Source: Bryobacterales bacterium (GTDB lineage Bacteria; Acidobacteriota; Terriglobia; Bryobacterales; UBA6623). From it: a stretch of DNA of 64,000 bases. The stretch spans positions 28,000-91,999 of the forward strand of contig CBDCOC010000004.1 in NCBI GenBank assembly GCA_965219605.1, written 5' to 3'. Under the pieces are notes generated by a model that saw nothing but the letters and a program-made list of their open reading frames with translations, did no database searches and was not told where the DNA came from. Below, piece by piece: positions 1,999 to 11,541 of the stretch (position 1 is the stretch's first letter; each line of letters starts with the position of its first letter). Position numbers and translations under genes: made by a program.

Positions 1999-2572
1999 GA
2001 CCGGGATTCGATGCCTGTCCGCTGGCAAGACTGACGGTTCAGCCAAGTCTTGAGGCCTGCGCTCTGCTTCCCGCCGGTTTGAAGCCCAGCCGCGCTCGTC
2101 CCCAGGCCACCCTGCGGCGCGCAGGGCTGGCGCTAGCGCAGCATAGGCCAAACTGGCAGTTGCTGGGGCCACGAGCTGTCAGCTACATCTCTCTAGCGGC
2201 TCTTGAACTGCTTAATGAACTGCGCGTGCAGCAGCGGCTCGATCCCCCCTTTTATGTTGGAATAGTGCCCGAACGAGGAATGGCCGCCACGCCCGTGAAG
2301 CCTCTGCCAGCACGGTCGCAGCTGGCGCTAGCCAGCGCTGCGACAACTCACAGTTTCCTGCCCGCCGCAGTGCAGGTAGGAGTGTGCCAAGGGGGCCTGG
2401 CCAGGCCCCCTTGGCAGCGACGGGTCGGACCGTTCCCCCCTCGGATTCTAGGTCCGTCTCTGAGCTTGGTCGGCCCGTCGCACCCATTCCTGCGCGTCCT
2501 GCACGGAAGCGTGGGTACAGACCCGTATCGCAAAAGGATAGGAATACAGGTAGGACCACACCCACTCCCATC

Positions 2573-3358
2573 GTAGTCGCCGGCATCGATGTCGGCAAGG
2601 CGTACCTGGACGCCCGCCTGCTCGACACCGGCCTCGACCGCCGCTATGCAAACACCAAAAGCGGTCGCCGCGCTCTGTGCAACTGGCTGCGCAAGCAGGG
2701 CGTCACTCGCGCTGTCTTCGAACCCACCGGGCGTTACCACCGCCAACTGCACCAATGCCTGGCTGCAGCTGGCTTGGAGACTGTCCTTGTCAATCCCTTG
2801 CGCTCGCGGCGCTTCGCCGAAGCGCTCGGCCAACTCGCCAAGAACGACCGCGTTGATGCGACCATGCTGGCTCGTTTCGGTCGTCTCGCTGACTTGCAAG
2901 CGACCCCGCCACAAGCCGATAACCTGCAACTTCTCCAGGATTTGCTTGTCGCTCGCCGCAAGCTTATCGAACAACTCGGCACCCTGCGCAAGCTGACCGC
3001 CGCACTCAACCCGCAAGCGGCGCGCCGCTTGACCAAGCCGCTCGCCAGCTTGCAGGCCGCCCGCGCCGCCTGCGACCGTGACCTACAAACTTGCCTAGCC
3101 GCCGATGCCGTGCTTGCTCGCCGCGCTGAGATTATCCAGTCCATCCCCGGCTGCGGCCCGCTCAACGCTGCCTGCCTCTGCGCTGCCATGCCCGAACTCG
3201 GCTCGCTCGGCCGCCGCCCGGCCGCCGCGCTACTCGGGCTGGCTCCCTTCGACCGCGATTCCGGCCAACGGCGCGGCACTCGCTCGATGCGCGGCGGGCG
3301 CGCCCAGCCGCGCCACTTGCTCTACATGGCCGCCCTGTCTGCCAGGTACATTTTTTAG
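2573..3358 (+). pseudogene. IS110-family transposase, N-terminal fragment (DEDD/RuvC-like domain), truncated by ISAs1 insertion at 3344/3345
   Basis: Motif IGIDVGK plus a Transposase_20-like middle region. The ORF terminates inside the ISAs1 left inverted repeat immediately after YMAALSA. Confidence 0.75.
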
Positions 3359-5552
3359 TCGGTGCATGCTGCGTGTGAGGGGAGCGGATCGCGTCTGGTG
3401 AGGCTAGTGGAGCAGCGCGCAGGAGTCCGCACAACTCGTTGCGCAGGCGCTGGCGCAGTATTGGCTGGGCTTGGACCGGGTGGCTGGGCCGAGTAGGCGC
3501 AGCGGGAGTGTTGCCAGCACGGTGCGGCTGCATTGGACGGGGCTGGGGCCGGGCTAGTGGCGGGGTGGTTGTAGCAGGCAGTCGAGGGCCTCCTGCGGGC
3601 GGGCCGCGAAATGGCGGTTAGCCTGCGGCAGGTAGCGGAATTGCGGCAGGCCGCGGATGATCGAGATGGCGGTGTTGGTCAGGCAGGCCAGATTGCGCGG
3701 CAAGTCGCGCACATACACGCGGCAGCGGTCCTCGTCGTAGGTGAAGTCGCGCACGTAGTGCAGGCGGTTTTCGATGTGCCAGTGCTTGCGCAGCAGTTGC
3801 GCGAGTTGCGCGGGCGTGGCTTGCGCAGGACTCAGCGAAGTCAGCGCGTAGGTCACTTCGGTGCTGCACTTGCCGGTCTTGACGTGCGTGCGTCGGCGCT
3901 CGACGCGGATCGCCTGCTGACGACCGTACAGCTTGGCAGAGCCATCCCAAGCCGCAGCGCTGATGTCCTTGACTTGGTAGCTGCGGTGCTCGCTACGGCC
4001 ATGCTTGCGGTCGCTGGTTTCCACCAGCGGGCAGTCGCTGAAGTCCATGCTGCGCAGGTCGGCGAGGATGGTTGGCTGGTTGCCCTTGATGGCGGTGATC
4101 AGGTACTCGGCCTGGCACTCGTCGAGCACGCAGCGCGCCGTCTTGTGCTGGGCGTGCAGCGCGTCGCCGGTCACCACGCGGCCCTGCAGCGGCAGTTGCC
4201 GGGCCAAGTCGCAGAAGGCCGGGATCTCGTTGCTCTTGCTGTCGATCTCGAGCTGCCCCAGCACCACGCCGCTATCCTGTTCCACGGCCGCGAGCAGCAT
4301 GCGGCGCCCCCGCTTGGTCTGCTTCGAAGCCCCGCGCACGTCCTTGCCATCCAAGCTCACTGCGGGCAGCTGCGCCGGCCCGCTGCCGGTCGCCGGCGCC
4401 GCGTCCGCCGCTGGCCGGGCTTGGATGTGCGCGCTCTGCTGGCCGGCCCAAGCGCGCGTGGCTTGTTCCAGCGTCTGCGGCTCCAAGCTCGCCAAGATGT
4501 TGTGGAAGGTGGTGATCGAAGGACTCGTGTAGCAGTCCTTGCTGGGGCTGCGGAAACACTCCACCGCCGCCCGCTGGCCCTGGTCCAGCAAGGCTGCGAA
4601 CTGGGCGCAAGCGGTCACGCCGCGGTAGCCGCACAGGCGCGCCGCCACGGCCAGTGTCAGCACGCAGCGTAGTTCGTAGCGCTTGCCGCGAGCGTGCCGG
4701 TACTCGGGCACCTCGCCCAGAAACTCGAACAGACTGCGCAGCGTCTGCGCGTCCGGTGGTTGGCTGCGCTCGGGCCCCGCCCAGCACGGATCGTCCGCGC
4801 TGTGGGCCAGTTGCTGCGCCGCATGAGCTTGCACTTCGTACACAAACACCTCCTTGGGTTGACCGTGGCGGCGCCACTGCGGCCTGGCCGCCGGCACGCG
4901 CGCGTAACCGCCGCTCTGCCCCAGCCAGCGCCAGTTGGCGGCCCGGTAGCACGTGCCGGCGAAGCGTTGCTTGTCGACGAACGACTCCGCCAGCAGGATC
5001 GGGAAGCCATGCGCCGCCAGCATGTCGTCCGACAGCCGCCGCACACTCAAGCCCAGCACGCGCGAGGCCAGATTGGGCTGGCCCTGCCAGGCGGGCAGAA
5101 TCACAAAGCGCGAGTTCTGCAACACCAGGTGCAGGCGCTGGCGCCGCTGCTGCGCGCTCCAGCCGATCCAGCGGTCGCGGGCCGCCAGCTTGAGCGCGGC
5201 GGCCTGCCAGCCCAGCAAAGCGATCCACTGCTCGCCGAGCGTGGCCACTTGGCGCAGGGCCTTGCCGAACAGGCCCGTGAACGACAGATAGTGGTGGGCC
5301 GCCATCAAGCGATCCCAGCGCCGGTGCTCGCGCGCCCCCTGCGTGGGACGCACGCGCACCGTGCGCAAATCCAGCTCGCCCCCGCCGCTTGGCACAGCCA
5401 TTACAAGCTAGCCTGACAGATGGACAACAAAATGTCCAGCCCCCTGTGGCCCATTCCGCTCGGCAGCCGACCTGCGAGCGGCTAACCGCCAGGCACCGCC
5501 CCTATCCCTCCTGCCGTGCTCTGCCTCAAATCCGGACTAAAAAATGGTCCTG
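3343..5552. mobile_element. ISAs1-family insertion sequence (~2.2 kb) nested inside the IS110 transposase gene
   Basis: Imperfect terminal inverted repeats: CAGGTACATTTTTTAGTC at 3343-3360 and its partner at 5535-5552 (reverse complement CAGGACCATTTTTTAGTC). A flanking direct repeat CCCTGTCTGC(CA) lies at 3332-3344 and 5552-5564, giving a 10-13 bp target-site duplication whose exact length depends on where the repeat ends. One transposase ORF lies inside. Confidence 0.8.
3554..5401 (-). CDS. ISAs1-family DDE transposase with N-terminal DUF4338-like domain
   Basis: 615 aa. The C-terminal signature HWHIENRLHYVRDFTYDEDRCRV is diagnostic of ISAs1/DDE_Tnp_1. The N-terminal HHYLSFTGLFGKALRQ...WIGW block is conserved with this family. 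Confidence 0.8.
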   Translation of the reverse strand: MAVPSGGGELDLRTVRVRPTQGAREHRRWDRLMAAHHYLSFTGLFGKALRQVATLGEQWIALLGWQAAALKLAARDRWIGWSAQQRRQRLHLVLQNSRFVILPAWQGQPNLASRVLGLSVRRLSDDMLAAHGFPILLAESFVDKQRFAGTCYRAANWRWLGQSGGYARVPAARPQWRRHGQPKEVFVYEVQAHAAQQLAHSADDPCWAGPERSQPPDAQTLRSLFEFLGEVPEYRHARGKRYELRCVLTLAVAARLCGYRGVTACAQFAALLDQGQRAAVECFRSPSKDCYTSPSITTFHNILASLEPQTLEQATRAWAGQQSAHIQARPAADAAPATGSGPAQLPAVSLDGKDVRGASKQTKRGRRMLLAAVEQDSGVVLGQLEIDSKSNEIPAFCDLARQLPLQGRVVTGDALHAQHKTARCVLDECQAEYLITAIKGNQPTILADLRSMDFSDCPLVETSDRKHGRSEHRSYQVKDISAAAWDGSAKLYGRQQAIRVERRRTHVKTGKCSTEVTYALTSLSPAQATPAQLAQLLRKHWHIENRLHYVRDFTYDEDRCRVYVRDLPRNLACLTNTAISIIRGLPQFRYLPQANRHFAARPQEALDCLLQPPRH

Positions 5553-5564
5553 CCCTGTCTGCCA

Positions 5565-5844
5565 CCCGCCGCCAGCCCGTCGCCCAAGCCTGCTAGTGGC
5601 TAACGGCAAGTTCCACAAGCTCGCCCTCGTGGCTGTCATGCGCCGCTTGGCCTGCCTGCTCGACACCCTCTTGCGCGAAGCGCGAAGATCGCCTCTGGCA
5701 ACCCGAACCGCCCGCACGCCCTGCCGAGGCCCTCGCATGAATTGCCTGCTCCTCGCTGCCCGGCACTCCACGCCAGGCCCCCTCGCCTGCCACTGGCGCC
5801 CTCTTTTCCCGCTCCTGCCGCTTGACTTTCAACACGGAAGCTCT
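5565..5844 (+). pseudogene. IS110-family transposase C-terminal fragment plus element right end
   Basis: KLALVAVMRRLACLLDTLLRE matches the IS110-family C-terminus (KVALVAxMRKLL..LNAMLR). The nucleotide sequence is ~90% identical to the block at 42961-43189. Confidence 0.7.
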
Positions 5845-6100
5845 CGGATTGGTTGCTTTGCTGTGAAACTGCTAGACGCGGGGATGCAACAACCCCCACC
5901 CCGCTGTTGCGGGCTGACAACGTCTTAGGTCCGTTGCGAAGCGAAGACGAGTCGCGTCGATCTCAGGGGCAGTCCCGATTTATGGACCAAGGCAGCGGAT
6001 CACGGAATCCACTCTACCTCGCACCAACGGACAGCGGCACTCTCTTGAGTGCTCCTCGCAGTACACACAGTTTCATGCCCTCGGGGTGATTGCCCGCCGC

Positions 6101-7366
6101 TCATGGTTGTTTCTTATTTCGGCGAGACAGCCCAGGGAGCAACAGCGTGGAAGGAAGCGCCACACGATCTGTGGGGGCGAGTCGTTGAACTGATCGGGAC
6201 CGCACCTTGTTTTCCGAATTGAGAATTGCAAATTCTCGTTCCTTCATGAGTCTTATGATCACTTGGTCCAAATCGGAGAAGCGCGCCGCTGTTTGGTTCG
6301 CAAGCATGTGCCGCAACACGTCTATTGTGACGGGCTGTTCAGACACCAGCGCAAACAGCTCCTTGGGAAGAGAATCCAGTAGCTCTGTTCGCATGTTCTC
6401 TTCATCGAGTTCACCGAATTTGAACAATGGCAGGGTCTCCGAGACTTTCAAGGCATCCCAGCCCAGCATCCCGAATCCACCTTGTCCGTAATGTTCAAAG
6501 ATATTATGAATGTCCCAATGCTGTTGAATCATCACGTCACGTGCCGTTGGATGTCTTGAAAGATGGAGAAACCACAAGGCTCGCCTCGACTGCTGTGGCC
6601 GAATGAAGAAAGGCGTATCGTACGTTGCGCCGGTTATGTTCCGGGCGTGCTGGCGCAGCGTTCTTTGTACAAGCGCCCTGCCGCCGTCTCCGTCTCTTTG
6701 CTGTATCAGTTTGTAAATCTGAGAATCGGTTAACTGAAGCGGTGCTACCCCCTTGGCCATCGATGGAGTTTCCGCCAGATGGTTAACCAGTGCATCCGCC
6801 GCAAATGTGAGTATCACCTCGGCAGCAGGGAGTTCGCTAAAAATTCGGGACACGAGCGAGAGTTGCACCTGCGAGAACCCGGTCTGATCGAGAAGGAAAA
6901 TTGCACGTCTCGAGCGAGGTTGTCGTTGCCGAACCGATGAAATAATGCTCTCGATTTCCTGTTCGAAGGGTCCGTTTCTGACAACTATCCTGTCGTCATC
7001 GACATGATGGCCACGCTCACCGAGGACTTTTCGAAGATGGTCTGTGTGCGCTTGCTCCTTATCGACAAAGTAGAACCTGCAATCGATATGCAGATGCTTT
7101 GTGCGCCTCTCGTTCAGCCTGCCGCCTGCCGCTTCGGCTTCTTCGAGCATGATCAGGGGCGTACCCGAAACCTCGGTAGTCGCGTCAAGGAACAAGCCTC
7201 CGCCCGCAAACCCGTCAATAAGGTCGAGTTTGAACCCCTCTCGGACTGGATTGACGTTCAATCTGTCGAAGTATGCCCGAAGATAGCTGCGCAAAACCTT
7301 CAGTTTCGCTTTGCTATGCGTTTCAATGGACGGCGGTGGGCCGTCAGGGTGCCATTTGAACGGCAT
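6101..7366 (-). CDS. tcmP: Three-Cys-motif partner protein TcmP (TIGR04474-like)
   Basis: 421 aa. The N-terminus W..DG.PP...HSKAKL..L..YL..Y plus LDLIDGFAGGG is a glycine-rich Rossmann/SAM-like motif. The gene overlaps the DUF5131 gene upstream by 23 bp, which is the canonical pairing for this family. Confidence 0.65.
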   Translation of the reverse strand: MPFKWHPDGPPPSIETHSKAKLKVLRSYLRAYFDRLNVNPVREGFKLDLIDGFAGGGLFLDATTEVSGTPLIMLEEAEAAGGRLNERRTKHLHIDCRFYFVDKEQAHTDHLRKVLGERGHHVDDDRIVVRNGPFEQEIESIISSVRQRQPRSRRAIFLLDQTGFSQVQLSLVSRIFSELPAAEVILTFAADALVNHLAETPSMAKGVAPLQLTDSQIYKLIQQRDGDGGRALVQRTLRQHARNITGATYDTPFFIRPQQSRRALWFLHLSRHPTARDVMIQQHWDIHNIFEHYGQGGFGMLGWDALKVSETLPLFKFGELDEENMRTELLDSLPKELFALVSEQPVTIDVLRHMLANQTAARFSDLDQVIIRLMKEREFAILNSENKVRSRSVQRLAPTDRVALPSTLLLPGLSRRNKKQP

Positions 7367-8105
7367 GGTTGTCCTTCTCGGTCAACAGCGCGGGCATTGC
7401 GCTATGCTCCATCCCCTCCAACTTGCGGCCACCGGCCTTCGGCGTTTGCCCGCCCCACTGCTTGAAGAAGAACGGCACGCCAGAACGGGAGCAGAGGTCG
7501 CGTATGTCCAAGACCCACTCCAACTGCATGGGGCGGGCTTGTGGGCCGCTTTCTCCTCCGACGATTACCCAAGAAATTCCGCTTAGGTCGATCTTTCCGA
7601 TGGGGCCCAAGAGCGGCTCAATCGAGAGGAATCGCACCGCGGCCGGTGCAGTTCGCAAATGTTCGATTCTTGCCGTTGCCGAGCTATCCTCAACGGACAC
7701 TCCGCACCAGATGTGGTCGGGAGCTGAACCGTCGGTGTACCGATGCCGCAGATAGCTTCTCATAAGTGAGCTGCGCTTTGTCAAGATCTGATAGACATGC
7801 CTGTCTACCGTTTCCATCGTTTCGAATACGCTGTCTACCAAACTCCGCTCTACCTTCTTGTGAAACAAGTCGCTCATGGAATTAACGAATATCATTCGTG
7901 GCTTGCGCCATCGTGCGGGCTGGTCGAGCCGCGACGGCCACTGTCGAAGATCGAAACCTTGCTCGTAGGGGTGCCCGGAAACGCCGCGCCAGCGCTCGGC
8001 GAAGCGCGCTGCGTAACAGTGGTCGCAGCCACGGGTGATCTTCGTGCAACCGGTCACCGGATTCCAAGTTGCATCGGTCCATTCAATTGCAGACTTAGCG
8101 CTCAT
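7344..8105 (-). CDS. Phage Gp37/Gp68 family protein (DUF5131) with three-Cys CxxxxxxxxCxxC motif
   Basis: 253 aa. IEWTDATWNPVTGCTKITRGCDHCYA and KPRMIFVNSMSDLFHKKV are hallmark blocks of PF07505. The gene is translationally coupled to tcmP. Confidence 0.85.
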   Translation of the reverse strand: MSAKSAIEWTDATWNPVTGCTKITRGCDHCYAARFAERWRGVSGHPYEQGFDLRQWPSRLDQPARWRKPRMIFVNSMSDLFHKKVERSLVDSVFETMETVDRHVYQILTKRSSLMRSYLRHRYTDGSAPDHIWCGVSVEDSSATARIEHLRTAPAAVRFLSIEPLLGPIGKIDLSGISWVIVGGESGPQARPMQLEWVLDIRDLCSRSGVPFFFKQWGGQTPKAGGRKLEGMEHSAMPALLTEKDNHAVQMAP

Positions 8106-8142
8106 GATACAATTGCCGGGTCAGTTTGAACTTGAGCACGCC

Positions 8143-8419
8143 CTAGTCTCGCAGAGCGGAGGCAGGATCGTTTTGTGTTTTTACGCTACCGCACCAAGGC
8201 TGTTCTTGGCCACCAGCGCCCACCCGCATGGTTCGCTTGGACATCAGATCGGCCTCGGTGAGTCCGAGCGCTGCCTCGCGTGCGGCCACCCAGACCGGCA
8301 TCGACCGAGCTGCGACGAGCGCGATCCACCGCCCCGCATAACGCAGCATCGTTGATTCCCTTGCGATCAGCCAACCGGGCAAACGCCTTGGTCCTGAATG
8401 TCCGCAATCTACGTCCCAC
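8143..8419 (-). pseudogene. Degraded RelE/HigB-like (DUF1044-type) toxin gene, frameshifted
   Basis: Two overlapping minus-strand reading frames carry TKAFARLADRKGINDAALCGAV...VDAGLGG. This resembles DUF1044 toxins (TKWFARWAKKEGLSDAALCEAV...IDADLGGG). There is no intact ORF. Confidence 0.35.
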
Positions 8420-8782
8420 CGATCACCGCTTATTCTATAGCACCGAGTGCGGTCTCTGTCATTCCAGCCTCGCTGGTACCAGCGTCCTTGTGTCGTGTCG
8501 TTGCCGACGTGACCAGAACGCCCGCTGCGATTATGCGCCGTTCCTTCGTATCCGTATCGCCGGCAATGCGACCGCTATCGCCGCCTGCCAGCCTTGTGCC
8601 GCCGAGAGGAGCGGGCCGGTCGGAAGCAGGCGCGGGAGCTTCGGGCGGCCCGTGAAAGAGGCCGCCTCCAATAGACTTCTTTGCGGGGAAGGCCATCTAC
8701 CGCGTCAGAATTCCGTTAGGAATCTGGAGTTCTAGGCAGCGGGGGGTTGCGCCGGGGGCGGACTCTGGGTAGCTTGTGCGGC

Positions 8783-9405
8783 TCAGATCCGATTGCGTCG
8801 CCGCAGGGCGGCATGGGAATTGTCACGCTGCAAGGGAGACGGCCTGCTAGCGGGCTGGGGCTCGAGTCTGGCGAAGGCCAGTGGCAGTTCGGGCAGCGTG
8901 CCGCAGAGGAGGCGGACATAGTCGGGCTGGCGCAGGTTAGCGACAAGCGCCACCTGGGCTGGTTGGTCCTGCATGTCGCGGCTCAAATGGGCACTCCCGA
9001 CACGGCGGCGCAAGCTTTGCTTGGCGCGGGCGAAGAACTGCTCCAAAACGTTGTTGGTGCGGGCCACAACCGCCACTACGCGCCCCTGCTGGTCGTGCAG
9101 CACAGGCTGGCCGCAGAGTTGGGAGCGTAGCGCTCCAAGTAGTCCAGCAAGATGGCGGCGGGTGGTTGCTCAGCAGCACGGGCGGGGTAGCTTACGGACT
9201 CGTTGGCGCAGGCTGTGGTGGTAGCGTTGGCAGGCGGCGGCAATGGCTCGCAGGCGCGTGGCTTGGGCGGCGGGGGAGAGCGGTTCGGGGCGCGGGCCTT
9301 GGCCGTGCGGCAGGTCGCGGGGGAGAGGCGCAGGATGTCGCGCAACTCGCAGAACAGCGCCTGGCGGTGCGTGAGTCGACGCACAGCCGCGGCGGCCTGT
9401 TGCAA
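8783..9405 (-). pseudogene. Transposase remnant, possibly IS5/IS1182-like, frameshifted
   Basis: Minus-strand fragments include TNNVLEQFFARAKQSLRRRVG. This resembles the IS5-family C-terminal block E.FF.KLK.FRR[VI]A.RY.K. Several frames are broken. Confidence 0.3.
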
Positions 9406-9819: not shown

Positions 9820-11541
9820 CTACAGCCCCCACACAGTGATCGGCAGTTCGCCCGCTTGCGGCTCGTGGCGGAACAAGCGCTCGTCCCACGAGCGGTCCGG
9901 CCGTGAGTCGAAAATCAGCAAGTGCCCCGTTTCCGCCCCGCAGCGGTCCATGTACTTGGCCGTCTGCTGGCGCCCTTCACGCAGCAAGCTCTCCCAGCCG
10001 ACTTTGTCCCGGCGCACCTTGCACTCGATGACATACTTGCGCGAACTCACTTGGCTCCCTCCGCTGCGGCCCCACTCGATCAACAAGTCCGTGCGCCCGC
10101 GGCCCACCGCGTACTCGCGCCCGATGCGCCCGCCGCTGTTGACCACCCGCTGCAGATAGGCATGCAGCACCAATTGCGGCCCGGCCTCGGCGTGCCGGTA
10201 GCGCTCCACCCACGACTCGGCGTGCTCGCGGAAATACCCCTGGAACGCGCTCAGCAGCCCCGCCACATCCAAGCCGCCGTCGGCCTGCACGTACCACTCC
10301 GGCTTGACTTGCAGCTCAAGCCCCGATTGCAGTGCTGCGGTCAGCTCGCGCGGTACCACTTCGGCATAGATCGGGTTCGCCATGCGCACTTCGTCCTTGG
10401 CGGCCACCAAGCCCAGATCGCGCACATACTCCAAGTCGCGCAGCGAGTAGTCCCAATCCGCAGACCCGGCCAGCATGGGCAGGATCACGCGCCGCACGCG
10501 CTCTTCGCGCAGCTTGTCCGCGAGTTGGTCGAGGTGCGTCACGCGGCGCACAATCAGCGCTTCCTTGGCCGCCTCGATCGCTGGCACGCCGACGGGCCGC
10601 GCCGGGGCCGTACCAAGCTTGGCCCGGAAGCAAGCCTCATATGCCAAGGCGTTGACCAGCCACGGCTGGCCACAGGTCAGCGCCCACAGGCGCTCGACCG
10701 CCGCCGGCGCGAAGGCTTGCCCGCGCTCGGCCGTGTACTGCACTAGCAAGGACTGCACCTCGTCTGCTGAGAAATCCCCGAGGCGCAGCGACTCGGCCTT
10801 GATGTTGAAGGCACTGCCGCCCCTGACGTTGGCCCCCTCCCGGCTGGAATAGATCTGGTAGTCGCGCACGTCCCGCACGCCGCACAGGATCACGCTTTGC
10901 GGGAAATGCTGCGGCCGCATGTCGTAGCGCGCGCGCAACTGGCGCAGCACCGAGATCAGAGTGTCGCCGACCAGGGCATCGATCTCGTCCAGTAGCAGGA
11001 CCAAGGGCCGCGCCTCGCGCTCCGCCCAGCGCGTGAGGCATTCGGCCAGGCAGGCGTCCGGCCCGCACTCGGCCGCCAGGGCCGCCTTGGACTGCTCCAC
11101 GAAGCCGTCCTGCAACACACGCCGTGCGCGCGTGCCCATCTCCGTTAGGATGGTCTGCATGGCGCGCGCCGTATTCTCCTTGGCCGCTTGGCCGCCTTCG
11201 ACATTCACGTACAGGCAGCGATATTCGCCCGTCGCATTGAGTCGGTCTTGCAGTGCCAGCAAGGTCGAGGTCTTGCCCGTCTGGCGCGGCGCGTGCAGCA
11301 CGAAGTAGCGCCGGTCGGCGATCAGTTCGAGAATTTCGTCCAGTTGAATGCGGTCCAGCGGCGGGATGCAGTAGTGGCGCTGCGCCTCGACTGGGCCTTC
11401 CAGGTTGAACTTGCGCACGCCAGCTTGAGTATGGCACGCAGCGCCGACGAGCAGCAAGCGCGGCGGCCCGGCCAGAGTTCCGGCCACCCCGGCTGGGCGA
11501 GCACCAGACGCCGGTGCCGGCCCCACTCCCCACGACAACAA
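9820..11541 (-). CDS. AAA+ ATPase with C-terminal PD-(D/E)XK nuclease-like domain. The true start is probably near 11418 (VRKFNLEG...).
   Basis: Walker A HAPRQTGKTSTL and a Walker B-like LLLDEIDAL. The C-terminus has GRTDLLIE...YVIECKVRRDK, a D...E.K nuclease motif. The architecture resembles the AAA-ATPase_like/PDDEXK_9 family. Confidence 0.7.
   Translation of the reverse strand: MLSWGVGPAPASGARPAGVAGTLAGPPRLLLVGAACHTQAGVRKFNLEGPVEAQRHYCIPPLDRIQLDEILELIADRRYFVLHAPRQTGKTSTLLALQDRLNATGEYRCLYVNVEGGQAAKENTARAMQTILTEMGTRARRVLQDGFVEQSKAALAAECGPDACLAECLTRWAEREARPLVLLLDEIDALVGDTLISVLRQLRARYDMRPQHFPQSVILCGVRDVRDYQIYSSREGANVRGGSAFNIKAESLRLGDFSADEVQSLLVQYTAERGQAFAPAAVERLWALTCGQPWLVNALAYEACFRAKLGTAPARPVGVPAIEAAKEALIVRRVTHLDQLADKLREERVRRVILPMLAGSADWDYSLRDLEYVRDLGLVAAKDEVRMANPIYAEVVPRELTAALQSGLELQVKPEWYVQADGGLDVAGLLSAFQGYFREHAESWVERYRHAEAGPQLVLHAYLQRVVNSGGRIGREYAVGRGRTDLLIEWGRSGGSQVSSRKYVIECKVRRDKVGWESLLREGRQQTAKYMDRCGAETGHLLIFDSRPDRSWDERLFRHEPQAGELPITVWGL

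What the first reader, a model, noticed from the sequence alone, without database searches (positions are those of the whole stretch)
6101..8105. Overlapping DUF5131 (Gp37/Gp68 three-Cys) plus TcmP two-gene cassette inside an IS-saturated accessory island
A 253-aa Gp37/Gp68-family protein carries the CxxxxxxxxCxxC three-Cys motif. A 421-aa TcmP-like partner overlaps it by 23 bp, which implies translational coupling. The TcmP N-terminus has a glycine-rich LDLIDGFAGGG loop that resembles SAM/NAD-binding motif I. The pair has no established function. It sits between a nested IS110/ISAs1 element on one side and, on the other, a degraded toxin, an IS5-like remnant and an AAA/PD-(D/E)XK nuclease gene. 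That position is the kind of context in which defence or nucleic-acid modification cargo accumulates. I rank it as the strongest candidate for an undescribed functional system here, for example radical-SAM-like chemistry on DNA or RNA with a SAM-binding partner.
Basis: partly seen in the sequence, partly recalled or inferred. Interest (0 to 1): 0.75.

Follow-up and report, generated by a model that had tools for sequence, protein, structure and literature searches.

The report
Mobile radical-SAM plus methyltransferase-like gene pair
This is an intact copy of a named, horizontally mobile two-gene operon: a radical-SAM-type enzyme coupled to a methyltransferase-shaped DNA/RNA-binding partner. 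It is already catalogued as an untested candidate anti-phage system, so it is a good experimental target but not a new kind of system.

Summary
ORFs 7344..8105(-) (253 aa) and 6101..7366(-) (421 aa) overlap by 23 bp. They score far above cutoff for PF07505/DUF5131 (316.8 vs 28.9 bits) and TIGR04474/TcmP (183 vs 53 bits). The Cys motif is Cx6Cx2C, not Cx8Cx2C.

The pair is not undescribed:
- TcmP is named for this partnership.
- DUF5131 is a listed radical-SAM subgroup.
- The pair matches PADLOC candidates PDC-M30/M41, which are predicted but untested.

- DUF5131 adjoins TcmP in 65/65 close loci and 23/24 distant viral loci.
- The 23-bp overlap is exact in 19/19 intact loci.
- dN/dS is 0.05-0.18.
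- The roughly 55% GC cassette is foreign in hosts from ten or more phyla, apparently sponge/coral symbionts.
- 31/65 loci carry a type IIG restriction-modification gene nearby.

The most likely function is a two-enzyme SAM-dependent nucleic-acid base-modification module carried as defence-island cargo. That mechanism is inferred, not shown.

The parts
7344..8105 (-). DUF5131 / phage Gp37-Gp68 family gene (253 aa), radical-SAM-superfamily enzyme
   Evidence: ORF. PF07505 316.8 bits. PADLOC PDC-M30B/M41B 330 bits. PHROG 2045. Weak full-length homology to the radical SAM family TIGR04471 (E 6e-23, below the equivalog cutoff).
8016..8048 (-). Cys triad C20-x6-C27-x2-C30, followed by Y31; presumed 4Fe-4S ligands
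   Evidence: Read from the translation. C20, C27, C30 and Y31 are invariant in 25 diverse DUF5131 proteins, including phage copies.
7545..7559 (-). G183-G184-E185-S186-G187, a GGE-type motif (binds the SAM amino group in radical SAM enzymes)
   Evidence: Invariant columns in alignment A3. The role is inferred from general knowledge of radical SAM enzymes.
7344..7366 (-). 23-bp overlap between the DUF5131 stop and the TcmP start
   Evidence: Coordinates. The same 23-bp overlap is present in 19 of 19 intact homologous loci.
7372..7377 (-). SD-like GAAGGA inside the DUF5131 coding sequence, 5 nt upstream of the TcmP ATG
   Evidence: Sequence. By a simple motif count, 32 of 60 related loci have an SD-like motif before the aligned position; that count is a lower bound, because in many loci the true start lies 6 nt further upstream.
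6101..7366 (-). TcmP (three-Cys-motif partner protein) gene, 421 aa
   Evidence: TIGR04474 183 bits against a cutoff of 53. PADLOC PDC-M30A E 5.7e-16 and PDC-M41A E 2.2e-12.
6482..7330 (-). TcmP residues ~13-295: class I SAM-dependent methyltransferase fold, RlmJ-like
7196..7216 (-). Motif I loop D51-G-F-A-G-G-G57 after strand beta1 (SAM-binding glycine loop)
   Evidence: D51 and G55 are invariant; G52, F53, G56 and G57 are at least 90% conserved in 131 sequences. The loop follows beta1 (residues 44-51) in the model. Compare RlmJ D-T-H-A-G-A-G.
6875..6889 (-). D160-Q-T-G-F164 at the end of beta4, the motif IV position, where RlmJ has D164-P-P-Y
   Evidence: D160 is invariant; Q161 and G163 are at least 90% conserved. 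Beta4 spans residues 155-160 in the model. The RlmJ motif and its mutagenesis are in PMC3814359.
7304..7306 (-). K21, invariant Lys in the N-terminal helix; candidate equivalent of catalytic K18 in RlmJ motif X
   Evidence: Invariant in A1. The equivalence is inferred from motif order and the fold match, not from a significant sequence alignment.
6158..6412 (-). TcmP residues ~319-403: three helices plus a beta-hairpin, a winged-helix-like domain
   Evidence: Secondary structure of the model. Pfam PF22560 'GMT-like wHTH' passes its cutoff in the close homologs P0046 and P0108 (28 and 30.7 bits) but scores only 14 bits in the window protein.
6110..8218 (-). Block of nucleotide homology (82-88% identity) shared with cassettes in other genomes: both genes plus a 113-bp upstream leader
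   Evidence: blastn of the window against L002, L005, L006 and L053. Alignment of the upstream regions.
8181..8419 (-). Decayed RelE-type toxin / XRE-HTH antitoxin pair directly upstream: truncated toxin, antitoxin with its HTH deleted
   Evidence: PF06296 36 bits on ORF 8186..8419. An intact RelE + HTH_3 pair sits at the same position in L004-L006 and L053, with partial or antitoxin-only remnants in L002, L003 and L013. The antitoxin N- and C-terminal remnants were read.
2384..5928 (.). Downstream flank: IS110-family transposase gene interrupted by an ISAs1 element (3554..5401)
   Evidence: Pfam DEDD_Tnp_IS110/Transposase_20 and DDE_Tnp_1. NF033542 and NF033564. The IS110 C-terminal remnant at ~5560-5700 was read from ORF 5389..5928; this is inference.

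Best explanation
Identity (secure): this is an intact copy of the mobile DUF5131-TcmP operon, the pair PADLOC lists as candidate defence systems PDC-M30/M41.

Gene products:
- Gene 1 encodes a radical-SAM-superfamily enzyme. It has a Cx6Cx2C cluster motif and a GGE motif.
- Gene 2 is translationally coupled to gene 1 through a conserved 23-bp overlap. It encodes a two-domain protein: an RlmJ-like class I SAM-dependent methyltransferase fold plus a C-terminal winged-helix domain. The methyltransferase domain has an invariant Lys21/Asp160 pair at the motif X and motif IV positions.

Mechanism (inferred): the two proteins form a SAM-dependent nucleic-acid base-modifying module.
- TcmP supplies target recognition through its winged helix. 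It supplies a base-binding pocket through the methyltransferase-type active site, which is related to enzymes that act on exocyclic amines of A or G. It may itself N-methylate the base.
- DUF5131 performs 5'-deoxyadenosyl-radical chemistry on the same nucleotide, or on the group TcmP installs.
- DNA is the more likely substrate.

Biological role (inferred): accessory defence-island or mobile-element cargo. The modification would either mark or damage nucleic acid during conflict with phages or other mobile elements.

In this window the cassette arrived by horizontal transfer together with a RelE/HTH toxin-antitoxin pair that has since decayed.
For: Shown by tools:
- Family membership.
- The Cys triad and the GGESG motif are invariant in DUF5131. 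DUF5131 is listed as a radical-SAM subgroup, megacluster 5-2, next to spore photoproduct lyase at 5-3 (PMC9477430). Homology to radical SAM TIGR04471 at E 6e-23.
- TcmP model at pLDDT 91. Best structural matches are the nucleic-acid base N-methyltransferases RlmJ and Trm1.
- SAM-binding motifs are retained in the RlmJ order: K21/H22, DGFAGGG, G68-S/T-P70, acidic residue 102, N131-G-x-F134, D160 (and the RlmJ contacts).
- Obligate pairing: 65/65 close loci and 23/24 distant viral loci. It is also seen on plasmids pCAR1.2 and pAt1D1108a and in Gordonia phage Fairfaxidum gp42/gp43.
- The overlap is conserved in 19/19 intact loci, and dN/dS is 0.05-0.18.
- Defence context: a type IIG restriction-modification gene lies within 10 kb in 31/65 loci, and in many of the 22 cluster-2 loci it abuts the TcmP stop codon. 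Other nearest neighbours include a Type III methyltransferase, ZacA, a Type II REase, AbiD, DrmD and PDC candidates.
- The PDC-M set was derived from genes embedded in BREX, DISARM and type I RM systems.
- In Sinorhizobium meliloti, TcmP SMa2243 is grouped in a putative transcription unit with the defence gene hna.
Against: - No experiment on either protein was found in the searchable literature.
- The DUF5131 fold was not modelled here, and Cx6Cx2C is a non-canonical spacing.
- TcmP lacks the (D/N/S)PP(Y/F/W) motif that defines amino-methyltransferases. It gives no hit to the Pfam RlmJ model, and profile-sequence alignment to RlmJ is not significant. It could bind SAM without methylating.
- The substrate (DNA or RNA) is not determined. 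RlmJ and Trm1 are RNA enzymes.
- Many phages carry DUF5131 without a detectable TcmP, so the radical-SAM enzyme can act alone.
- About half of the surveyed loci, including this window, have no adjacent restriction-modification gene. I ran no background control for defence enrichment.
- No defence phenotype has been published for PDC-M30/M41.
Confidence: 0.45

Rival explanations
1. Counter-defence rather than defence. The pair is carried by mobile elements (prophages, conjugative plasmids, islands) to put a protective modification on their own DNA. That DNA would then survive host restriction, as with orphan methyltransferases or phage Mom. The biochemistry is the same as in the best explanation, but the beneficiary is the opposite party.
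For: - DUF5131 is found in 181 phage records.
- The pair is found in prophage or viral contigs.
- TcmP is on 60 plasmids, 26 of them conjugative.
- On pCAR1.2 the pair sits directly after an integrase.
- Cassette GC is foreign in 17 of 19 hosts.
Against: - In Gordonia phage Fairfaxidum the pair lies between the integrase and the immunity repressor. From general knowledge, actinophages usually keep lysogen-expressed defence genes at that position.
- The PADLOC candidates were found embedded inside host RM and BREX systems.
- Many chromosomal copies abut a complete type IIG enzyme that already has its own methyltransferase.
Confidence: 0.2
2. RNA modification. TcmP acts like its nearest structural relatives RlmJ and Trm1, on rRNA or tRNA. 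With DUF5131 it hypermodifies a host or phage RNA, either tuning translation or acting as a translation-targeting effector.
For: - The top structural matches are RNA methyltransferases: RlmJ, Trm1, TYW4, METTL16.
- From general knowledge, pairings of a radical SAM enzyme with a methyltransferase are well known in tRNA pathways (Trm5 then TYW1; MiaA then MiaB).
Against: - The pair is sporadic, horizontally transferred and low in GC. It sits in islands next to DNA restriction-modification genes, not among translation genes.
- The RlmJ active site itself resembles DNA m6A methyltransferases (PMC3814359).
- A winged helix is more typical of DNA binding.
- The nearest radical-SAM neighbour of DUF5131 in RadicalSAM.org is the DNA enzyme spore photoproduct lyase.
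Confidence: 0.12
3. DNA repair. DUF5131 is a spore-photoproduct-lyase-like radical SAM repair enzyme, and TcmP is a lesion-recognition or regulatory partner.
For: - DUF5131 clusters beside spore photoproduct lyase in RadicalSAM.org megacluster 5.
- Solo DUF5131 sits among replication and DNA-metabolism genes in mycobacteriophage TChen.
Against: - Nothing links the family to UV or sporulation.
- The defence-island and mobile-element distribution, together with a conserved SAM-methyltransferase-like active site in the partner, is not what a repair factor would need.
Confidence: 0.06
4. In this particular genome the cassette is silent, decaying cargo. The upstream toxin-antitoxin unit that may have carried the promoter is degraded, and IS elements have replaced whatever lay downstream.
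For: - The toxin is truncated and the antitoxin has lost its HTH.
- IS110 and ISAs1 lie directly downstream.
- No sigma-70-like promoter was found in 5800-8600.
- About nine of 65 related copies are visibly disrupted by insertions or frameshifts.
Against: - Both ORFs are full length and keep every invariant residue.
- Pairwise dN/dS against the closest relative is 0.14 and 0.18.
- The conserved 113-bp leader is retained.
- The promoter scan uses an E. coli-type consensus, which may not apply to this organism.
Confidence: 0.1

Closest known systems
PADLOC phage-defence candidates PDC-M30 and PDC-M41 (Payne et al., guilt-by-embedding screen)
   Same: - There are two genes. The B component matches DUF5131 at 330 bits, and the A component matches TcmP at E 5.7e-16 (M30A) and 2.2e-12 (M41A).
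- The genes are adjacent.
- Restriction-modification genes are frequent neighbours.
   Different: - The match to the A models covers only the N-terminal ~270 residues and is modest. This clade is a divergent branch, about 30-38% identical to the plasmid, prophage and viral copies found by alignment.
- In the window the pair is not embedded in any RM or BREX system.
- The candidates are untested, so there is no phenotype to compare.
[quoted passage not shown]
   Same: Both models are passed well above their cutoffs. The defining adjacency is present.
   Different: None in kind. This copy belongs to a tightly conserved sub-clade (60-87% identity) that has spread across phyla, with a fixed 23-bp overlap.
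RlmJ, the 23S rRNA m6A2030 methyltransferase (and its homolog LPL1258/DUF519)
   Same: - The motifs come in the same order: an N-terminal helix with a conserved Lys-His, D-x-x-A-G-x-G, G-S-P-L, an acidic motif II, a G-F motif III, and Asp at the end of beta4.
   Different: - Motif IV is DQxG(Y/F), not DPPY.
- There is no hit to the Pfam RlmJ model, and the sequence-profile alignment is not significant.
- TcmP has an extra C-terminal winged-helix domain, and in the sequences RlmJ has about 30 more residues than TcmP between the DxxAGxG loop and the GSPL motif, where its helical subdomain sits (PMC3814359).
- TcmP is always paired with a radical SAM protein and is mobile, not a housekeeping gene.
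Spore photoproduct lyase and the 'radical SAM mobile pair' proteins A/B (TIGR04471/TIGR04470)
   Same: - All belong to the radical-SAM superfamily.
- DUF5131 sits in the same RadicalSAM.org megacluster as spore photoproduct lyase.
- DUF5131 aligns over almost its whole length to TIGR04471 (E 6e-23).
- The mobile pair is likewise a sporadic, mobile two-gene unit of unknown function.
   Different: - Scores are far below the equivalog cutoffs (81 vs 355 bits), so DUF5131 is a relative, not a member.
- The cluster motif is Cx6Cx2C.
- The partner here is a methyltransferase-fold protein, not a second radical SAM enzyme.
Type IIG / type IIL restriction-modification enzymes (MmeI-like, Eco57I-like, Type ISP-C-domain proteins)
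   Same: They are frequent immediate neighbours of the pair in other genomes (31/65 loci). They are SAM-dependent and act on DNA.
   Different: They are neighbours, not homologs of either gene. None is present in the window (tblastn negative). The pair also occurs without them in about half of the loci.

Membership tests
Pfam PF07505 DUF5131 (phage Gp37/Gp68) | Score above the gathering threshold over the full model | tested here: met
   316.8 bits against 28.9; residues 5-238 cover model positions 2-243 of 243.
NCBIfam TIGR04474 TcmP | Score above the curated cutoff | tested here: met
   183 bits against 53; residues 17-287 cover model positions 2-263 of 263.
NCBIfam TIGR04474 TcmP | Encoded next to a three-Cys-motif (DUF5131) protein | tested here: met
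   The genes are adjacent and overlap by 23 bp. The same linkage holds in 65/65 close loci and 23/24 viral loci.
PADLOC PDC-M30 / PDC-M41 candidate defence system | Both component HMMs matched by adjacent genes | tested here: met
   The B component scores 330 bits. The A component gives E 5.7e-16 (M30A) and 2.2e-12 (M41A). PADLOC's own system-level thresholds were not available.
PADLOC PDC-M30 / PDC-M41 candidate defence system | Confers protection against phage | not testable with these tools
   The 145 PDC systems are described as untested. No paper mentioning PDC-M30 or PDC-M41 was found.
Radical SAM superfamily | Three-Cys motif (canonically Cx3Cx2C) that ligates a 4Fe-4S cluster | tested here: inconclusive
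   Three invariant Cys are present, but with Cx6Cx2C spacing. Cluster binding cannot be tested in silico here.
Radical SAM superfamily | SAM-binding GGE-type motif | tested here: met
   G183-G184-E185 are invariant in 25 diverse sequences.
Radical SAM superfamily | Partial or full TIM-barrel core fold | not tested
PDB sequence and profile searches found no relative. Support is indirect: homology to TIGR04471 and the listing in RadicalSAM.org.
RlmJ family (Pfam RlmJ/DUF519) m6A methyltransferases | Class I Rossmann-like methyltransferase fold with an N-terminal motif X helix | tested here: met
   [not shown]
RlmJ family (Pfam RlmJ/DUF519) m6A methyltransferases | Motif IV D-P-P-Y | tested here: not met
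   TcmP has D160-Q-x-G-(Y/F) at the end of beta4. RlmJ has 164-DPPY-167.
RlmJ family (Pfam RlmJ/DUF519) m6A methyltransferases | Detectable sequence homology to the family model | tested here: not met
   No Pfam RlmJ hit even at E up to 10. hhalign of the TcmP profile against E. coli RlmJ gives probability 5%.
RlmJ family (Pfam RlmJ/DUF519) m6A methyltransferases | Catalytic Lys (K18) and Asp (D164) pair | tested here: inconclusive
   K21 and D160 are invariant and lie at the corresponding motif positions. The equivalence rests on topology and motif order, not on a residue-level superposition.
Type II toxin-antitoxin (RelE / XRE-HTH) upstream of the pair | Intact toxin and antitoxin genes | tested here: not met
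   Only residues ~2-56 of the 120-position RelE model are matched (36 bits). The antitoxin HTH is deleted. Intact pairs exist in L004-L006 and L053.

The most novel reading that the evidence does not exclude
The pair installs a so far unknown radical-SAM-dependent hypermodified base in DNA. TcmP would flip out and N-methylate, or simply hold, an adenine or guanine at a short recognition site. DUF5131 would then functionalise that base or methyl group by 5'-deoxyadenosyl-radical chemistry. The mark would serve as a portable epigenetic self-label. It would travel between phyla, often with a type IIG restriction enzyme, and be read in phage-host or plasmid-host conflict.
Probability: 0.2. Interest if true: 0.8.

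Novelty: new member of a known kind. Interest (0 to 1): 0.4.

Why it matters
- The DUF5131-TcmP pair is widespread. There are 972 TcmP cluster representatives at 50% identity, 181 phage records with DUF5131, and 60 plasmids with TcmP. It is catalogued as a candidate immune system, yet it has no known chemistry.
- TcmP turns out to be an RlmJ-like methyltransferase fold fused to a winged helix. It keeps an invariant Lys/Asp pair but has a non-DPPY motif IV. This turns 'function unknown' into concrete tests: SAM binding, base modification, and K21, D160 and Cys-triad mutants.
- If the pair makes a new nucleic-acid modification, it would add a radical-SAM branch to the DNA or RNA modification systems used in microbial conflicts.
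- The clade found here is also a clear case of one 2-kb cassette moving between at least ten phyla, apparently within sponge and coral microbiomes.

Tried and rejected
- Single-sequence AlphaFold of TcmP gave pLDDT 36 and was unusable. The job was repeated with a 131-sequence alignment.
- PDB sequence and profile searches for both proteins found nothing significant.
- hhalign of the TcmP profile against the single RlmJ sequence gave probability 5%. The RlmJ relationship is therefore claimed at fold level only.
- Foldseek against viral structures (BFVD) returned only weak generic methyltransferase hits.
- The afdb50 library was unavailable.
- I tried to find what 'GMT' means in Pfam PF22560. 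There were no papers, and the Gamma-Mobile-Trio preprint proved unrelated. I dropped this.
- tblastn of TcmP against phage genomes found one hit. This understates its presence in phages: a Gordonia phage 'methyltransferase' passes TIGR04474, and an alignment-based scan found 24 viral loci.
- The promoter scan found nothing. It is uninformative for this organism.
- tblastn for the recurrent type IIG, HEC-01-like and other neighbour proteins found none in the window.
- The 'IS5-like remnant' ORFs (8783..9103 and others) had no Pfam or NCBIfam hit.
- 'Common prophage structural module' is rejected. Phage copies lie in lysogeny or early-gene regions, not among structural genes.
Full report
**1. 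What is in the sequence**

ORF 7344..8105(-) encodes 253 aa and ORF 6101..7366(-) encodes 421 aa. They share 7344..7366, a 23-bp overlap. An SD-like GAAGGA sits inside the first gene, 5 nt before the ATG of the second.

The first protein scores 316.8 bits on Pfam PF07505/DUF5131 (cutoff 28.9).

One detail is wrong. The cysteines are C20, C27 and C30, which gives Cx6Cx2C and not Cx8Cx2C.

GC drops to 0.55 over the pair against 0.66 in the flanks.

**2. Context in the window**

- Downstream, an IS110-family transposase gene (2384..3358) is interrupted by an ISAs1 element (3554..5401).
- Upstream, ORF 8186..8419 is a truncated RelE toxin (PF06296, 36 bits, only the first half of the model).
- The sequence between that toxin and DUF5131 keeps the N- and C-terminal ends of an XRE-type antitoxin, but the helix-turn-helix has been lost.
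- The 573-aa protein at 9820..11541 has AAA_22 and AAA_35 domains.
- I could not confirm the PD-(D/E)XK nuclease label or the 'IS5-like remnant'.
- Further out are ordinary chromosomal genes: a tricorn-type protease and a multihaem cytochrome.

**3. It is a known, named pair**

- TcmP is named for its partnership with the three-Cys protein.
- DUF5131 is listed as a subgroup of the radical SAM superfamily in RadicalSAM.org. It is megacluster 5-2, beside spore photoproduct lyase at 5-3 (PMC9477430).
- In PADLOC both proteins hit the candidate systems PDC-M30 and PDC-M41. The B component scores 330 bits, and the A component gives E 5.7e-16 and 2.2e-12.
- The PDC sets come from the 'guilt-by-embedding' screen of genes nested in BREX, DISARM and type I RM loci. 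That screen left 145 candidates explicitly untested (bioRxiv 10.1101/2024.01.29.577857).
- Full-text searches found no experimental work on DUF5131, TcmP or PDC-M30/M41. The only functional hint is that S. meliloti SMa2243 (TcmP) is listed in one putative transcription unit with the defence gene hna (PMC12445080).

'Undescribed' is therefore too strong. 'Function not established' is correct.

**4. What TcmP is**

A single-sequence AlphaFold run failed (pLDDT 36). With a 131-sequence alignment (A1, 28-87% identity to the query) the model is confident, at pLDDT 91.3 and pTM 0.91.

Residues ~13-295 form a seven-stranded class I SAM-methyltransferase fold.
- Foldseek against the PDB independently puts RlmJ chains in 11 of the top 14 places (best E 4e-7).

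The conserved TcmP motifs follow the RlmJ order:

| Position | TcmP | RlmJ |
|---|---|---|
| N-terminal helix | H-S-x-A-K21-H | L-K18-H19 |
| After beta1 (motif I) | D51-G-F-A-G-G-G | D-T-H-A-G-A-G |
| GSPL motif | G68-S/T-P-L | G-S100-P-L |
| End of beta2 (motif II) | acidic residue 102 | E118 |
| Motif III | N131-G-x-F | D143-G-F |
| End of beta4 (motif IV) | invariant D160 | D164 |

In RlmJ, H19, S100, E118, D143 and D164 contact SAM, and K18 and D164 are essential for catalysis (PMC3814359).

The differences matter:
- After D160, TcmP has Q-x-G-(Y/F) instead of P-P-Y.
- TcmP does not hit the Pfam RlmJ model.
- Profile-to-sequence alignment with RlmJ is not significant.

I therefore say TcmP works like an RlmJ-type enzyme at fold and cofactor-site level, but I do not file it as an RlmJ family member.

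Residues ~319-403 form three helices plus a hairpin, a winged-helix-like domain. Pfam's 'GMT-like wHTH' model passes its cutoff in two close homologs but scores only 14 bits in the window protein.

**5. What DUF5131 shows**

In 25 diverse sequences, including phage copies, the invariant residues include C20, C27, C30, Y31, a G183-G-E-S-G187 motif, a fourth Cys (C205) and an F-K-Q-W-G motif. The protein aligns over almost its full length to the radical SAM family TIGR04471, 'mobile pair protein A'. The E-value is 6e-23, but the score is far below that family's equivalog cutoff. Its radical-SAM nature is therefore well supported but not structurally tested here.

**6. The pair is an obligate, selected, mobile unit**

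- A scan of one genome per GTDB species found 65 loci with a close TcmP (45-87% identity). All 65 also carry DUF5131. It lies directly upstream in nearly all of them. The exceptions are a few loci with an intervening insertion and one locus (L049) with a divergent copy downstream.
- In 19 of 19 intact loci examined, the overlap is exactly 23 bp.
- dN/dS against the window copy is 0.05-0.18 wherever dS is not saturated.
- The pair's GC (0.51-0.62) is below the flanking GC in 17 of 19 hosts.
- Nucleotide homology between the window and the closest loci (82-88%) covers only 6110..8218, that is the two genes plus a 113-bp leader.
- The closest relatives carry a RelE + XRE-HTH pair just upstream: intact in L004-L006 and L053, and only partial remnants in L002, L003 and L013. 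The window keeps only the wreck of such a pair.
- About nine of the 65 copies are broken by insertions or frameshifts.
- Linkage persists at long range. An alignment-based scan of viral contigs found 24 TcmP relatives (24-38% identity). In 23 of them DUF5131 is adjacent, upstream in 20 and convergent in 3.
- On plasmids, pCAR1.2 has integrase, Gp37/Gp68 and TcmP on one strand. pAt1D1108a has the pair near ImmA/HTH, AAA and HORMA genes.
- In Gordonia phage Fairfaxidum, the gene annotated 'methyltransferase' (gp43) is convergent with DUF5131 gp42 and passes TIGR04474 at 109 bits. The pair lies between the integrase and the immunity repressor.
- Many phages carry DUF5131 with no detectable TcmP (181 records against 1 by tblastn). 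One example is TChen, where it lies among early genes next to an HNH endonuclease.
- None of these positions is structural, so the third refutation criterion also fails.

**7. Neighbourhood**

I clustered the flanking ORFs of the 65 loci.
- One large recurrent neighbour is a protein of about 1,100 aa with N6_Mtase and Type_ISP_C domains. PADLOC calls it a type IIG restriction enzyme-methyltransferase. It is present in 22 loci and is usually convergent, with its stop codon within about 30 bp of the TcmP stop.
- MmeI-like enzymes occur in 7 loci.
- Eco57I/DrmMI-like enzymes occur in 3 loci, which are three copies in one MAG.
- Together, 31 of 65 loci have a type IIG enzyme within 10 kb.
- Among the other 95 nearest neighbours there are scattered hits to a Type III methyltransferase, ZacA, Type II REases, AbiD, DrmD and several PDC candidates.
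- HEC-01A-type ABC ATPases occur in 4 loci.

I ran no background control, so this is association and not measured enrichment. It agrees with how PDC-M30/M41 were discovered. None of these neighbours is present in the window.

**8. Who carries it**

The 65 loci come from the following groups:
- Alpha- and Gammaproteobacteria
- Binatia
- Latescibacterota
- Thermodesulfobacteriota
- Dehalococcoidia and other Chloroflexota
- Gemmatimonadota
- Nitrospinota
- Acidobacteriota
- Spirochaetia
- a Synechococcus
- a candidate-phyla-radiation bin

All of them are MAGs. Many carry names that point to sponge or coral hosts (Poriferihabitaceae, Porisulfidus, and the bin prefixes CAR/COS/RHO and Plut). Reading those prefixes as sponge and coral species is my inference. 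It is consistent with the study that reported RM, CRISPR and TA enrichment and cross-phylum lateral transfer in sponge symbionts (PMC8163846).

**9. How it most likely works**

Shown here:
- Membership of both families.
- A SAM-methyltransferase fold with a conserved cofactor site, plus a winged-helix domain, in TcmP.
- A conserved Cys triad and GGE motif in DUF5131.
- Obligate linkage, purifying selection and mobility.
- Frequent restriction-modification neighbours.

Inferred:
- TcmP recognises a nucleic-acid site and presents, and possibly N-methylates, a base.
- DUF5131 carries out radical chemistry on that nucleotide.
- The substrate is more likely DNA than RNA.
- The role is in conflict between host and mobile elements.

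I put about 0.45 on this package.

The main rival uses the same chemistry for the opposite party. In that reading mobile elements protect their own DNA from restriction (0.2). RNA modification (0.12), DNA repair (0.06) and a silent decaying copy in this genome (0.1, not exclusive) remain open.

**10. Verdict**

This is a real, intact and well-conserved instance of a known but functionally uncharacterised gene pair. It is a new member of a known kind, not a new system. It is worth an experiment. The structural assignment of TcmP and the clear mutational targets make that experiment easy to design. However, the window adds no feature that sets this copy apart from the catalogued family. Interest is 0.4.

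Noticed in passing
L002-L066: Close copies of the ~2.1-kb cassette (60-87% protein identity, up to 88% nucleotide identity) occur in MAGs from at least ten phyla. Many carry sponge- or coral-associated names. This is a striking cross-phylum transfer within one type of habitat.
   Followed up: partly
e.g. L020:11248-14613(-), L010:11272-15312(-), L061:11242-14595(-): A ~1,100-aa type IIG restriction-modification enzyme (N6_Mtase + Type_ISP_C) is present in 22 of 65 loci. It is usually convergent with TcmP, and in many loci its stop codon lies within ~30 bp of the TcmP stop. This suggests a three-gene block that travels together. It is absent from the window.
   Followed up: partly
L010:11272-15312(-): This copy of the type IIG enzyme is about 225 aa longer than its relatives. 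The extra length comes from several Gly/Ser/Ala-rich low-complexity insertions inside an otherwise collinear protein.
   Followed up: no
window 2384..5928: An IS110-family (RNA-guided type) transposase gene is split by an ISAs1 element. The 615-aa ISAs1 transposase carries an N-terminal DruA-like domain (PF14236, 80.9 bits).
   Followed up: partly
L067:4737-5933(-) (Gordonia phage Fairfaxidum gp43): A phage gene annotated only as 'methyltransferase' is a TcmP family member (TIGR04474, 109 bits). It is convergent with DUF5131 gp42 and lies between the integrase and the immunity repressor. Simple tblastn had missed it, so TcmP is probably under-counted in phage genomes.
   Followed up: yes
L004, L005, L006 (one Alphaproteobacteria MAG, OZ219788/OZ219789): There are three copies of a larger repeated block in one genome: RelE/HTH TA, DUF5131, TcmP, then an Eco57I/DrmMI-like ~1,390-aa enzyme. 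In L004 an insertion separates DUF5131 from TcmP.
   Followed up: partly
L050, L054, L056, L063, L065; L013, L032, L060, L062: Several cassette copies are inactivated by 1.6-3 kb insertions inside TcmP or by frameshifts. The cassette is therefore lost as well as gained.
   Followed up: no
L026:5064-5783, L056:6614-7351, L046:8109-8867: In some Latescibacterota loci a second, ~60%-identical DUF5131 copy lies 2-4 kb upstream of the main pair. In L046 the ~59%-identical copy about 1.1 kb upstream of TcmP is the only one detected. In L026 and L056 the copy is directly preceded by a ~390-aa protein with an N-terminal zinc-ribbon and no Pfam or PADLOC hit (for example L046:5922-7127).
   Followed up: no
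window 9820..11541(-): This is a 573-aa AAA_22/AAA_35 ATPase with no NCBIfam hit and only a marginal PADLOC hit (mad8, E 0.005). Its C-terminal third is unassigned.
   Followed up: no
L070 (P. aeruginosa plasmid pS810b) and 33 other Pseudomonas plasmids: TcmP is common on large Pseudomonas plasmids. In pS810b it stands alone directly after an IS21 element, which suggests DUF5131 was displaced there.
   Followed up: partly
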